Part shown: piece by piece, positions 14,801 through 64,000 of the stretch
Numbering within the stretch: the stretch's first letter is position 1
Layout: each line of letters opens with the position of its first letter
Source of the DNA: Escherichia coli
GTDB taxonomy: Bacteria; Pseudomonadota; Gammaproteobacteria; Enterobacterales; Enterobacteriaceae
Assembly (NCBI RefSeq): GCF_029227855.1
Contig: NZ_CP074356.1
Direction: 5' to 3' (one strand)
Length of the DNA stretch: 64,000 nucleotides
The notes under the pieces: generated by a model
Database searches by the model: none
Seen by the model: the letters and a program-made list of their open reading frames with translations, nothing else
What the model was told of the DNA's origin: nothing
Made by a program: the position numbers and the translations under genes

Positions 14801-16360
14801 CCAGCGCGTAATGTTACCGTTGCGCGAGATCTCTTCTGCCAGTCGGCCCTGACGGTCATATTTCCGGCTGCTGCGTAAACCATCCGGATATGTCACTGAA
14901 GTCAGTTGCAACTGGCTGTTGTAACCATACCGTACCGTCCTGCCGTCCGGCAGTATCACTGAAGTCAGCTTTCCAGACGCCATATGCAGCCGGTACTCCG
15001 TCCGCCGTCCTGCCGCATCCGTCTGCGCCTTCAGCCTCCCCGCCTCATCATACTCGCTGCGGGTGATGCTCCCGTCGGCATGCTCCTTCTTCACCACACG
15101 CTTCAGGCCACCCCCGCCTTCCGTGTACAGCACCTCCCGCCGGTTCAGGCTGTCCGTGATGGTCACACGGTCCTGCCCGTACTCAAAGCGGTAGTCCAGC
15201 CCCTCCGGGTTGACCTGCTCCGTCACCCGCCCGGTATCATCATACCGGTAGCGGCTCTCCGGCCTCCCTGCATAATGGTGCGCCACCATCCGCCCGGCGT
15301 GCTCCGCATCATAAGTAAACCCGCGCACCTGCGTCCCGCTGCGGTCATACACCGCCCGCAGTTCTCCGCTGGCCGTGTACGTATAGCGCGCCAGCGGCGC
15401 AGTCGGCTGTTCATCCGGGTATGCCGGGTCGTGTGTCAGCCACACCGCCTCCAGCCGGATACCGTTATCGGCACCGTATTCTGTACCGGCGGGCAGCGTA
15501 TCGGGGAAAACCTGAGAAGAGGAAACAGAACGGGGACCGGCTGGAGAAGATAAAGAAGAGGCGCGCTGTTTACGGAAGGCTTCCGCCCGCTGCGCCTGCG
15601 TGCTCAGCGCCAGGTGAAAACAGCGGCCCGCGCCGTCCGTCACCCCCGTCACCGCACCCGCCACGTCACCCTCTGCCGCCCGGTGGAAGGCCAGCGTCCG
15701 CCCGAAGCCGTCCACCACGCCCGTCAGCACCCGGTATGCGGGCGGCTCCGGCGGCAGCACCTCGTCCGCCCCCGGCACCCGCTCCGGCCAGCCGAGCACC
15801 AGCCACTGCCCGGTTGTGCTGGCAGCCATCATATAGATGTGTGGACTCAGACGGACCGCTTCCGGCAACGCCCGCCAGAGCCGCGCAAGCGGGTGGCCTT
15901 TGTGCTGTTTCAGCACCCCGCACCGCGCCAGCCAGAACGACTCGCTGCGGCTGTAGCTTATCTCGCCGGGAAACAGGGGTTCAAAGTGAATGCTCCTGCC
16001 GCCGCTGTCGTTGAGTATCAGGCCTTCATCGCGTATCTGTAAGCGGATATCGAAGGGGGCTTTCCAGCCGGGACCAAACACCCCCACCGGCGCGGGCGTC
16101 CTGGTCCGGTAGCTGCTGTAGGCGCGGAAAAGAACAAACGGCAGCGGGCCGGACAGTGCCAGGTCGGTTTCAGCAGGCAGCACCTTCGCTCCCAGCAGCG
16201 GGTTTACCGGATTGCCATATTTCGGCGTGGCTTCCCCTGTGGGACACACCGAGCAGGCCACACCGGTTGGCGCACCTATCAGCACCCCTGCTGAACCCTG
16301 CACAATATCCAGTCCCTTGCGGGTCATGTCACCCTGCCGCGCCGCCGGTTTTCCACCCAT
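11861..16360 (-). CDS. PAAR domain-containing Rhs family polymorphic toxin (T6SS effector)
   Basis: 1499 aa: N-terminal PAAR-like region, long YD/RHS repeat core, hallmark [10 protein letters not shown] (DPLGL at 12593..12607), then a 243-aa C-terminal domain (11864..12592). Confidence 0.9.
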
Positions 16361-40874: not shown

Positions 40875-41129
40875 ATGCGTTTACATGTTAAATTGAAAGA
40901 GTTTTTTTCGATGTTTTTTATAGCCATATTATTTTTCCCTGCATTCAATGCTTCTTTATTTTTTACCGGAATTAAACCTCTATATTCAATAATAAAAGGC
41001 TCCACGGAAATATTTTATGATTGGAGAATGTTGATTCTATGCTTCGGTTTCATATCGTTTTCCTTGTTAAATATTCATGTAATTTTACTAACAATAATAA
41101 AATCATTCTTAATAAAAAAACAAAGGTAA
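40875..41129 (+). CDS. small hydrophobic protein, possibly the 5' part of a frameshifted membrane-protein gene
   Basis: 84-aa ORF with two predicted TM helices; ends just after an A7 run (41113..41119); ORF 41021..41341 continues in another frame. Confidence 0.4.
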   Translation: MRLHVKLKEFFSMFFIAILFFPAFNASLFFTGIKPLYSIIKGSTEIFYDWRMLILCFGFISFSLLNIHVILLTIIKSFLIKKQR

Positions 41130-41489
41130 TCAATTTCGCCACAGACATAACAATACAGCTAACTCTTATATTTTTACTAATAGCTATCGTAATAGCACCT
41201 TTAATAGCTCCTTTTGTCACAGGATATGTCAATGCTAATTATCACCCCTGCGGTAATAACACGGGGATTTTCCCAGGAGCAATCTATATTAAAAATGGCA
41301 TAAAATGTAATAATGAACATATTTCTCGCAAGGAAGATTAAGCAGTTAAATAATTAAATATTCTAAAACAAACAGTTTTTAACGCCGGATTCCATGTCCT
41401 TTCTTGCACTGTCTTTGTCAGGAACAATTTCTTATGCAAAGAATTTTGTATTATTGCCGCCAGAAATTCCTGGCGGCAGATATAATTTA

Positions 41490-51878: not shown

Positions 51879-54783
<2,905 letters not shown>

Positions 54784-54966
54784 TCACAACCCGAAGATGT
54801 TTCTTTCGATTCATCATCGTGTTGCGAAAATTTGAGAGACTCACGAACAACTTTCGTTGTTCAGTGTTTCAATTTTCAGCTTGATCCAGATTTTTAAAGA
54901 GCAAAACTTCGCAGTGAACCTTTGCAGGTACACTCTGAAGTATTTTTTATTTAATCACTACAGAGA

Positions 54967-55042
54967 TGGTGGAGCTATGCGGGATCGAACCGCAGACCTC
55001 CTGCGTGCAAAGCAGGCGCTCTCCCAGCTGAGCTATAGCCCC
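54967..55042 (-). tRNA. alaV: tRNA-Ala (TGC) in the 16S-23S spacer
   Basis: Reverse complement GGGGCTATAGCTCAGCTGGGAGAGCGCCTGCTTTGCACGCAGG...CCACCA. Confidence 0.97.
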
Positions 55043-55084
55043 ATAACATGTAGTTAAAACCTCTTCAAATTTGCGGTGCAAATT

Positions 55085-55161
<77 letters not shown>

Positions 55162-55229
55162 GTAGAGGTTTTACTGCTCATTTTCATCAGACAATCTGTG
55201 TGAGCACTGCAAAGAACGCTTCTTTAAGG

Positions 55230-61655: not shown

Positions 61656-61765
61656 ATTCGCGCCCTTCTCTTTTGACATTTCTTTTGCACTGGTAAACTA
61701 AATCACTTTTTTTGTCCCAGGCTCGCCTTGAGCCTGTTCTACCTTCCAACTGGAACCGTAACAAC

Positions 61766-63484
61766 ATGCGTACTAGCCAATACCTGCTCTCCACTCTCAA
61801 GGAGACACCTGCCGACGCCGAGGTGATCAGCCATCAGCTGATGCTGCGCGCCGGGATGATCCGCAAGCTGGCCTCCGGGTTATATACCTGGCTGCCGACC
61901 GGCGTGCGCGTTCTGAAAAAAGTCGAAAACATCGTGCGTGAAGAGATGAACAACGCCGGTGCGATCGAGGTGTCGATGCCGGTGGTTCAGCCAGCCGATT
62001 TGTGGCAAGAGAGTGGTCGTTGGGAACAGTACGGTCCGGAACTGCTGCGTTTTGTTGACCGTGGCGAGCGTCCGTTCGTACTCGGCCCAACTCATGAAGA
62101 AGTTATTACAGACCTGATTCGTAACGAGCTTAGCTCTTACAAACAGCTGCCGCTGAACTTCTATCAGATCCAGACCAAGTTCCGCGACGAAGTGCGTCCG
62201 CGTTTCGGCGTCATGCGTTCCCGCGAATTCCTGATGAAAGATGCTTACTCTTTCCATACTTCTCAGGAATCCCTGCAGGAAACCTACGATGCAATGTATG
62301 CGGCCTACAGCAAAATCTTCAGCCGCATGGGGCTGGATTTCCGCGCCGTACAGGCCGACACCGGTTCTATCGGCGGTAGCGCCTCTCACGAATTCCAGGT
62401 GCTGGCGCAGAGCGGTGAAGACGATGTGGTCTTCTCCGACACCTCTGACTATGCAGCGAACATTGAACTGGCAGAAGCTATCGCGCCGAAAGAACCGCGC
62501 GCTGCTGCTACCCAGGAAATGACGCTGGTTGATACGCCGAACGCGAAAACCATCGCGGAACTGGTTGAACAGTTCAATCTGCCGATTGAGAAAACGGTGA
62601 AGACTCTGCTGGTTAAAGCGGTTGAAGGCAGTAGCTTCCCGCTGGTTGCGCTGCTGGTGCGTGGTGACCACGAGCTGAACGAAGTTAAAGCAGAAAAACT
62701 GCCGCAGGTTGCAAGCCCGCTGACTTTTGCGACCGAAGAAGAAATTCGTGCCGTGGTTAAAGCCGGTCCGGGTTCACTGGGTCCGGTAAACATGCCGATT
62801 CCGGTGGTGATTGACCGTACCGTTGCAGCGATGAGTGATTTCGCTGCTGGTGCTAACATCGATGGTAAACACTACTTCGGCATCAACTGGGATCGCGATG
62901 TCGCTACCCCAGAAATTGCTGATATCCGTAACGTGGTGGCTGGCGATCCAAGCCCGGATGGCCAGGGTACGCTGCTGATCAAACGTGGTATCGAAGTCGG
63001 TCACATCTTCCAGCTGGGTACTAAGTACTCTGAAGCACTGAAAGCCTCCGTACAGGGTGAAGATGGCCGTAACCAAATCCTGACGATGGGTTGCTACGGT
63101 ATCGGGGTAACGCGTGTAGTAGCTGCGGCAATTGAGCAGAACTACGACGAACGCGGCATCGTATGGCCTGACGCTATCGCGCCGTTCCAGGTGGCGATTC
63201 TGCCGATGAACATGCATAAATCCTTCCGCGTACAGGAGCTGGCCGAGAAACTGTACAGCGAACTGCGTGCACAAGGTATCGAAGTGCTGCTGGATGACCG
63301 CAAAGAGCGTCCGGGCGTGATGTTTGCTGATATGGAACTGATCGGTATTCCGCACACTATTGTGCTGGGCGACCGTAACCTCGACAACGACGATATCGAA
63401 TATAAATATCGTCGTAACGGCGAGAAACAGTTAATTAAAACTGGTGACATCGTCGATTATCTGGTGAAACAGATTAAAGGCTGA
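61766..63484 (+). CDS. proS: proline--tRNA ligase
   Basis: 572 aa [20 protein letters not shown]...; track ORF has an 18-codon upstream extension. Confidence 0.95.
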
Positions 63485-63493
63485 TGCCAGAAA

Positions 63494-63520
63494 GGGTCCT
63501 GAATTTCAGGGCCCTTTTTT
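63494..63520 (+). terminator. rho-independent terminator after proS
   Basis: GGGTCCTGAA-T-TTCAGGGCCC followed by TTTTTT. Confidence 0.6.
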
Positions 63521-63536
63521 ACATGGATTGTATAAA

Positions 63537-64000
63537 ATGGATAAACCAAAGGCGCATTGCCGCCTGCTTCTCCCCTGCTTTTTTTCCTTTCGGCCTGTAC
63601 CGTAGATATCAGCCAGCCGGACTCATCAGCCACAGCGGTAGATGCCGGGGCGAAAACATGGGCAGTCAAATTCCAGCATCAAAGCTCTTTTACCGAACAA
63701 TCAATAAAAGAAATAACGGAACCTGATCTCAAACCCGGCGATTTGCTGTTCTCCTCAAGCCTTGGGGTAACCTCATTTGGAATCCGCGTCTTCAGCACTT
63801 CCTCTGTGAGTCACGTTGCAATCTATCTGGGTGAAAATAACGTTGCAGAAGCGACAGGCGCTGGCGTCCAGATTGTTTCCCTCAAAAAAGCGATGAAGCA
63901 TAGCGATAAGCTTTTCGTCTTACGAGTCCCGGATCTTACCCCGCAACAAGCCACAGAAATCACCGCATTCGCCAACAAAATTAAAGATAGCGGTTACAAC
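63537..64000 (+). CDS. yaeF: NlpC/P60-type lipoprotein YaeF, 3' end cut by window; apparent frameshift in the signal-peptide region
   Basis: ATG at 63537 reads MDKPKAHCRLLLPCFF then stops at 63603; the lipobox and mature protein (FLSACTVDISQPD... to the window end) are in frame 2; a T7 run at 63578..63584 lies at the junction. Confidence 0.6.

What the first reader, a model, noticed from the sequence alone, without database searches (positions are those of the whole stretch)
63537..63605. yaeF start codon is out of frame with its lipobox and mature domain at a T7 run
ATG at 63537 gives MDKPKAHCRLLLPCFF and stops after 22 codons, while the lipobox (FLSAC) and the rest of the NlpC/P60 protein run in frame 2 to the window end. 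One extra T in the T7 tract (63578..63584) restores a continuous lipoprotein. Together with the A7 junction at 41113..41119 this makes two homopolymer-linked frameshifts in one window: either real slipped-strand variation or homopolymer sequencing/assembly errors.
Basis: seen in the sequence. Interest (0 to 1): 0.4.

Follow-up and report, generated by a model that had tools for sequence, protein, structure and literature searches.

The report
One-base frameshift in E. coli yaeF
A run of eight T's in the signal-peptide part of the E. coli lipoprotein gene yaeF is one T short here, which separates the start codon from the rest of the gene; the same short allele occurs in other public E. coli assemblies, so this is an ordinary slippage frameshift and not a new feature.

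Summary
The ATG at 63537 opens a 22-codon frame that ends at TAG 63603-63605. The lipobox (LSAC) and the YaeF catalytic domain run in the frame of 63539 to the window end. The two frames meet at a T7 run, 63579-63585.

The nearest genomes carry T8 and an intact 274-aa YaeF. Of 5,426 complete RefSeq E. coli genomes, 95 have the exact T8 82-mer and none has the T7 81-mer. Other lineages read TTTCTTTT, so T8 is probably a recent C-to-T change in one lineage.

T7 is not unique to the window. A 267-aa product that only T7 can encode (TTG start at 63557) sits on 29 contigs in public collections, on at least three local haplotypes. T9 and T6 alleles also exist.

The second frameshift, A7 at 41114-41120 in ykfM, matches 44 complete genomes exactly; ykfM was annotated "frameshifted" in the two I inspected.

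Both sites are therefore slippage-prone homopolymers in dispensable envelope genes. I lean towards a real mutation, but I cannot decide real mutation versus under-called homopolymer for this particular sequence without reads. Both contractions are private to the window relative to its three nearest relatives. I found no support for programmed recoding or phase variation. Low interest; already a known kind of event.

The parts
61766..63484 (+). proS (proline-tRNA ligase), the intact upstream neighbour. The longest ORF starts at TTG 61712; the 572-aa gene annotated in relatives corresponds to about 61766.
   Evidence: ORF list; annotation of L001 and L003.
63537..63605 (+). Native yaeF start codon plus the n-region and part of the h-region of the signal peptide. 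In this sequence it is a 22-codon dead-end frame ending at TAG.
   Evidence: Translation. The same ATG is the annotated start of the 274-aa YaeF in T8 genomes. NF008552 aligns 1-274 of 274 from this start.
63579..63585 (+). T7 homopolymer, the site of the -1 frameshift. It is T8 in the nearest relatives and TTTCTTTT in other E. coli lineages.
63557..64000 (+). Frame that carries the lipobox (L-S-A-C; Cys codon TGT at 63596-63598) and the YaeF mature domain, cut by the window end. TTG 63557 is the first possible start in this frame and is the start of the 267-aa product on record under NCBI accessions.
40875..41341 (+). ykfM, split into two overlapping ORFs (40875-41129 and 41021-41341) by the A7 run. 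This is the second frameshift named in the finding.
41114..41120 (+). A7 homopolymer in ykfM. It is A8 in the nearest relatives; an identical A7 81-mer occurs in 44 complete genomes.

Best explanation
This is a slipped-strand -1 contraction (T8 to T7) in codons 15-17 of yaeF, inside the hydrophobic core of its lipoprotein signal peptide. One E. coli lineage probably made an uninterrupted T8 out of the usual TTTCTTTT by a C-to-T change (Leu to Phe). That run is slippage-prone and has lost or gained bases repeatedly in this lineage. In the T7 state, ribosomes starting at the native ATG make a 22-residue peptide and stop. The lipobox and the permuted papain-like (NlpC/P60, C92) domain are no longer joined to a proper signal peptide, so YaeF is lost or strongly reduced and the gene is effectively a pseudogene. 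What is shown: the frame break, T8 in relatives, the interrupted tract in other lineages, and recurrence of T7. What is inferred: loss of function, and that the change in this particular sequence is biological rather than a base-calling error.
For: T8 and an intact 274-aa YaeF occur in the nearest genomes. The exact T8 82-mer is in 95 complete genomes. Four sampled genomes from other lineages read TTTCTTTT. The 267-aa protein MPPASPLLFFLSAC..., which only T7 can encode, is on 29 contigs and in 41 index blocks, with NCBI accessions EKO4495896.1, EMO7739223.1, ENG6786726.1 and HBL6981883.1. The DNA of four such loci shows T7. T7 sits on different local haplotypes. The window equals JNEC-KY178 (T8) with 0 substitutions in 4 kb. 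L012 equals strain 7/2 (T8) with 0 in 3.5 kb. The window and L012 differ at 6 sites, so the contraction most likely arose more than once. L011, L012 (plus 13 similar places) and L014 carry no other indel over 5-6.8 kb. T9 (9-10 contigs) and T6 alleles also exist. The window is otherwise clean: four other 8-mers, nine 7-mers and 58 6-mers all match the reference, and proS is intact. The companion A7 in ykfM is an established allele in 44 complete genomes; ykfM is annotated as frameshifted in the two I inspected.
Against: None of 5,426 complete RefSeq genomes has the T7 81-mer. Both contractions are private to the window relative to its three nearest relatives. They hit 2 of the 6 longest homopolymers, both as -1, against only 5 isolated private substitutions. 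That is the signature expected of homopolymer under-calling. Some public length variants sit in visibly noisy assemblies: L013 (T7), L022 (T6), L027 and L028 (T9) each carry another indel nearby, in a homopolymer run in all but L022. The window's own TssM and TssC alleles are not on record, so I could not find the source or its clone-mates. No reads are available.
Confidence: 0.6

Rival explanations
1. Sequencing or assembly artefact. The isolate really has T8 (and A8 in ykfM), and the platform or polishing under-called the two homopolymers by one base.
For: Both indels are -1 in 8-mers, the longest runs in the window (2 of 6 affected, 0 of 67 shorter runs). Both are private relative to the three nearest genomes. 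No complete RefSeq genome shares T7. Comparable length errors are visible in some public assemblies of this locus (L013, L022, L027, L028).
Against: The same T7 allele occurs in clean, Illumina-like draft contigs on several haplotypes. The same A7 allele is in 44 complete genomes from many laboratories. Four other 8-mers and all 6-7-mers in the window are correct, and no essential gene is broken. The third indel is a clean 6-bp tandem-repeat unit, which is not an error type.
Confidence: 0.3
2. The gene is still functional. YaeF is made from the in-frame TTG at 63557 (the start of the product on record), or the frame is restored at the U7 run by transcriptional slippage or -1 ribosomal slippage, which would recreate exactly the wild-type ...CFFFLSAC... 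sequence.
For: TTG 63557 is in frame with the lipobox, and the 267-aa product still scores 518.7 bits on NF008552. It is on record under NCBI accessions as a YaeF family protein, not a pseudogene. A P-site slip from UUU 63582-84 to UUU 63581-83 followed by UUC would give the wild-type protein (read from the sequence). Transcriptional slippage can rescue frameshifts at A or T runs (PMC1088944).
Against: The TTG product starts MPPASPLLFFLSAC. It has no Lys or Arg in the n-region and only about 7 hydrophobic residues, and the AAGG four bases upstream is a poor, too-close Shine-Dalgarno site (read from the sequence; the signal-peptide rules are from general knowledge). In many bacterial genomes selection against slippage becomes evident at runs of 9 (PMC1088944), so I infer that slippage at a 7-base run is weak. 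There is no stimulatory structure downstream (z-score 0.10) and no upstream Shine-Dalgarno-like element. Orthologues are in frame, so the arrangement is not conserved.
Confidence: 0.07
3. Contingency locus. The T run (and the A run in ykfM) is a phase-variation switch that turns an envelope protein on and off.
For: A homopolymer lies in the 5' coding region of a surface-associated protein gene. T6, T7, T8 and T9 are all seen among near-identical genomes. ykfM shows 44 off versus 255 on among genomes that share the flanking sequence.
Against: T8 is present in only one lineage and other lineages have an interrupted tract, so nothing maintains it. Off alleles are rare: 0 of 95 complete genomes, and at most about 3% of contigs. 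Eight bases is short for high-frequency switching in mismatch-repair-proficient E. coli (general knowledge).
Confidence: 0.03

Closest known systems
yaeF (b0193) of E. coli, YaeF family permuted papain-like enzyme (NCBIfam NF008552; Pfam PF05708 Peptidase_C92; YaeF/YiiX branch of the NlpC/P60 superfamily, PMC3142127)
   Same: Same gene position directly after proS. It is 100% identical to WP_021523001.1 over the part in the window, once one T is added. The lipobox LSAC is present.
   Different: One T is missing from the signal-peptide region, so the annotated ATG is out of frame with the rest of the gene. The window ends before the region near the C-terminus where this permuted family carries its catalytic Cys.
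Homopolymer frameshift pseudogenes annotated 'frameshifted' by PGAP, for example ykfM with A7 in strains CFSAN061763 and Ecol_545
   Same: A single-base contraction of an 8-base A or T run in a dispensable gene, recurring among close relatives.
   Different: For yaeF-T7 the product on record under NCBI accessions is a shortened 267-aa protein from an upstream TTG, not a pseudogene.
Frameshift rescue by transcriptional slippage at A or T runs (Baranov et al. 2005, PMC1088944; Shigella mxiE; T. thermophilus dnaX)
   Same: The frame break lies at a T run, and adding one U to the mRNA would restore the protein.
   Different: The run is 7 bases, below the 9 at which the cited paper finds slippage matters in many genomes. 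The arrangement is not conserved, and no evidence of use was found.
Slipped-strand phase-variable genes (contingency loci of Neisseria, Haemophilus, Campylobacter)
   Same: A length-variable homopolymer lies near the 5' end of an envelope protein gene.
   Different: The tract is short, seen in only one lineage and rarely off, with no sign that the tract is maintained.

Membership tests
YaeF family permuted papain-like enzyme (NF008552 / PF05708) | Sequence match above the curated cutoff | tested here: met
   Repaired protein: 531.8 bits against a cutoff of 279, aligned 1-274 of 274. The 267-aa T7 product: 518.7 bits. The 152 aa in the window: PF05708 36.7 bits against a cutoff of 27.
YaeF family permuted papain-like enzyme (NF008552 / PF05708) | Conserved position proS - yaeF - nlpE | tested here: met
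   proS ends at 63484, directly upstream. nlpE follows yaeF in every relative fetched. nlpE itself lies beyond the window end.
YaeF family permuted papain-like enzyme (NF008552 / PF05708) | Permuted catalytic residues, with the Cys near the C-terminus | not testable with these tools
   The window stops at residue 154 of 274, so the C-terminal part of the gene is outside it. The permutation itself is described in PMC3142127.
Bacterial lipoprotein precursor | One reading frame containing the start codon, a positively charged n-region, a hydrophobic core and the lipobox [LVI][ASTVI][GAS]C | tested here: not met
   The lipobox L-S-A-C is present, but the ATG and the n-region (MDKPKAHCR) are in another frame. 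The TTG-start alternative has no charged n-region.
Programmed frameshift or transcriptional-slippage recoding site | The frameshifted arrangement is conserved in orthologues | tested here: not met
   Orthologues are in frame, with T8 or TTTCTTTT.
Programmed frameshift or transcriptional-slippage recoding site | Slippery run of sufficient length plus a stimulatory element | tested here: not met
   The run is 7 bases; the length at which selection against slippage is evident is 9 in many genomes (PMC1088944). The downstream 80 nt folds no better than shuffled sequence (z-score 0.10).
Slipped-strand phase-variation (contingency) locus | Tract length varies among close relatives | tested here: met
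   T6, T7, T8 and T9 are all found on near-identical flanks.
Slipped-strand phase-variation (contingency) locus | The tract is maintained, and on and off states are both common | tested here: not met
   T8 occurs in one lineage only. T7 is in 0 of 95 complete genomes and on 29 contigs against at least 1000 for T8.
Homopolymer sequencing artefact | Read-level support for the longer tract | not testable with these tools
   There are no reads. The source genome was not found in the collections.

The most novel reading that the evidence does not exclude
In one extraintestinal E. coli lineage, a point mutation created a T8 run in the yaeF signal sequence. Together with the A8 run in the neighbouring-island gene ykfM, it acts as a newly arisen mutational on/off switch for envelope proteins, with off variants repeatedly selected.
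Probability: 0.05. Interest if true: 0.4.

Novelty: already known. Interest (0 to 1): 0.12.

Why it matters
It matters little beyond annotation. The case shows that the record for T7 assemblies hides the defect: the product is listed as a 267-aa "intact" YaeF starting at a TTG, and it lacks a proper signal peptide. It also shows that a single C-to-T change can create a slippage-prone run that then breaks the gene repeatedly. YaeF has no known function, so a natural set of T7, T8 and T9 isolates could serve as ready-made null and wild-type pairs.

Tried and rejected
1. I looked for the source genome or its clone-mates. There is no exact T7 81-mer in 5,426 complete E. coli genomes. The window's private TssM and TssC protein alleles are not on record. 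The real-versus-error question therefore could not be settled through clone-mates.
2. I considered programmed -1 frameshifting. There is no downstream structure and no upstream Shine-Dalgarno-like stimulator, and the arrangement is not conserved. Rejected.
3. I considered that both contractions mark a generally error-ridden assembly. The other 71 homopolymers of 6-8 bases agree with the reference and proS is intact. This contrasts with truly noisy assemblies such as the BNF* records, where proS and tilS are broken. Weakened but not excluded.
4. I considered a mismatch-repair mutator background. The window has too few private substitutions (5 isolated: 3 transitions and 2 transversions) to test it.
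5. The 184-aa and 155-aa YaeF fragments in the collection turned out mostly to come from other lineages, or from noisy assemblies with different lesions, and not from T7.

Full report
**What is in the sequence**

The window ends with E. coli proS (ORF to 63484) followed by the start of yaeF. The ATG at 63537 gives MDKPKAHCRLLLPCFFSFRPVP and then TAG at 63603-63605. The frame that begins at 63539 reads ...LPPASPLLFFLSACTVDISQPD... and stays open to base 64000. That translation matches Pfam PF05708 (Peptidase_C92, YaeF/YiiX) and PF00877. The two frames meet at a run of seven T's at 63579-63585. The second run named in the finding is A7 at 41114-41120.

**Comparison with relatives**

A 561-base query across the site matches 5,423 of 5,426 complete RefSeq E. 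coli genomes. The best hits are 99.8% identical and one base longer.

- Alignment shows the only difference is T8 instead of T7.
- With T8, the annotated 274-aa "YaeF family permuted papain-like enzyme" (WP_021523001.1) starts at the same ATG and reads MDKPKAHCRLLLPCFFFLSAC....
- That protein scores 531.8 bits on the NCBIfam equivalog NF008552 (cutoff 279), aligned end to end.
- No complete genome contains the exact T7 81-mer. Ninety-five contain the exact T8 82-mer.
- Four sampled genomes from other lineages (ST2747, WP4-S17-ESBL-08, BL21 and E2) read TTTCTTTT. The uninterrupted T8 therefore looks like a recent C-to-T change (Leu to Phe) in one lineage.

**The whole window against its nearest genome**

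Strain JNEC-KY178 (NZ_AP045174.1) aligns collinearly over all 64 kb, with 23 substitutions and three indels:

- a 6-bp CAGAGT repeat unit at about 31109;
- A8 to A7 in ykfM;
- T8 to T7 in yaeF.

The reference segment has six 8-base homopolymers. Two of them are contracted in the window. The other four, all nine 7-mers and all 58 6-mers are unchanged. Against three near relatives, the window-private changes are five isolated substitutions, clustered changes in an Rhs gene and in 23S rRNA, and the two contractions.

**Is T7 seen elsewhere?**

Yes. A T7 genome has an in-frame TTG at 63557 that would give a 267-aa product, MPPASPLLFFLSAC.... Only a T7 tract can encode that sequence.

- This exact protein is in the public protein collection on 29 contigs, under NCBI accessions EKO4495896.1, EMO7739223.1, ENG6786726.1 and HBL6981883.1. 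It appears in 41 index blocks.
- The DNA of four carriers (GCA_012917045.2, ERR6565054, SRR30896514, SRR28764850) shows T7.
- These carriers do not share one haplotype. The window equals JNEC-KY178 (T8) with no substitution in 4 kb. L012 equals strain 7/2 (T8) with none in 3.5 kb. The window and L012 differ at six sites, and L011 and L014 differ again. The contraction has most likely arisen more than once.
- A T9 allele (a 292-aa product starting at the ATG that overlaps the proS stop) is on 9-10 contigs. A T6 allele occurs at least twice. No in-frame T5 or T11 product is on record.

There is a caveat. L013 (T7), L022 (T6), L027 and L028 (T9) each carry another indel nearby, in a homopolymer run in all but L022, so some of these variants are probably assembly noise. 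L011, L012 (with 13 similar places not shown) and L014 have no other indel over 5-6.8 kb.

**The second frameshift**

The exact A7 81-mer in ykfM is present in 44 complete genomes from many sources. ykfM is annotated "frameshifted" in the two I inspected. The A8 82-mer is in 255 genomes. Several of the A7 genomes have the TTTCTTTT form of yaeF, but YL03 belongs to the T8 lineage. A7 therefore also looks recurrent.

**Mechanism and consequence**

The wild-type precursor has:

- a charged n-region (MDKPKAHCR);
- an 11-residue hydrophobic core;
- the lipobox L-S-A-C.

With T7, translation from the native ATG ends after 22 codons. The only in-frame start for the mature domain is TTG 63557. Its product has no Lys or Arg before a roughly 7-residue hydrophobic stretch. 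An AAGG lies just four bases upstream, which is a poor arrangement. That judgement comes from reading the sequence; the rules for lipoprotein signal peptides are general knowledge.

Restoring the frame needs one extra U in the mRNA, or a -1 slip of tRNA-Phe on the U run. Either would recreate the wild-type protein exactly.

- The run is only 7 bases. Baranov et al. find that selection against slippage becomes evident at 9 in many genomes (PMC1088944).
- The downstream 80 nt folds no better than shuffled sequence (z-score 0.10).
- Orthologues are in frame.

I therefore infer a null or strongly reduced allele, not programmed recoding.

**Real or artefact?**

For a real mutation:

- the allele recurs in clean independent assemblies and on several haplotypes;
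- the tract is demonstrably unstable;
- the rest of the window is clean;
- the companion A7 is an established allele.

For an artefact:

- both contractions are private to this sequence;
- both are -1 and both hit the longest runs;
- no complete RefSeq genome has T7;
- I could not find the source or its clone-mates.

I put about 0.6 on a real mutation and 0.3 on an artefact. Only reads or resequencing can decide.

**Comparison with known things**

The gene is an ordinary member of the YaeF family, the permuted papain-like NlpC/P60 branch described structurally in PMC3142127. The event is an ordinary homopolymer frameshift of the kind PGAP labels "frameshifted". It resembles slippage-rescued genes and phase-variable contingency loci only in having a homopolymer at the break, and it fails their defining tests (conservation, tract length, stimulators, balanced on and off states). 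The T7 allele is already present in public databases. Novelty: already known. Interest: low.

Noticed in passing
window about 31109 (tssH/clpV of the type VI secretion island): The window has one fewer copy of a 6-bp CAGAGT tandem unit than strain JNEC-KY178. This is an in-frame copy-number difference inside the type VI secretion ATPase gene.
   Followed up: no
window 53555-53566 and 54428-55219 (23S rRNA and spacer of the rrn operon, minus strand): Substitutions against JNEC-KY178 cluster in the rRNA operon. Two are dinucleotide changes ten bases apart (AC...GC versus TA...TA) that are private to the window. They look like gene conversion between rrn copies, or paired changes in a helix.
   Followed up: no
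window 14830-14845 (Rhs core protein gene, minus strand): There are five substitutions within 16 bases relative to the nearest genome, three of them private to the window. This suggests a small recombination patch in the Rhs element.
   Followed up: no
window 63484-63726 (+): An 80-codon ORF starts at an ATG that overlaps the proS stop codon. In T9 genomes it comes into frame with the yaeF mature domain and is called as a 292-aa fusion product (P0031, loci L027-L029).
   Followed up: partly
L027 and L028, position about 1223 (tsaA-proS spacer; equals the window T7 run at 61707-61713): Two T9-yaeF assemblies from different sequencing runs also have T8 instead of T7 in the spacer before proS. 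Either they are clone-mates or both come from a platform that over-calls T runs.
   Followed up: partly
L010 (NZ_CP086662.1, strain E2) and L015-L024: yaeF is broken by other lesions in other lineages: it is annotated frameshifted in strain E2, and 184-aa and 155-aa fragments are on dozens of contigs. Several of those assemblies (the BNF* records) also have broken proS and tilS, so they are error-rich.
   Followed up: partly
window 25124: A window-private T-to-C change turns a CCTGG (Dcm methylation motif) into CCCGG. This could be an isolated real SNP or a methylation-context base-calling error. It is one case only.
   Followed up: no
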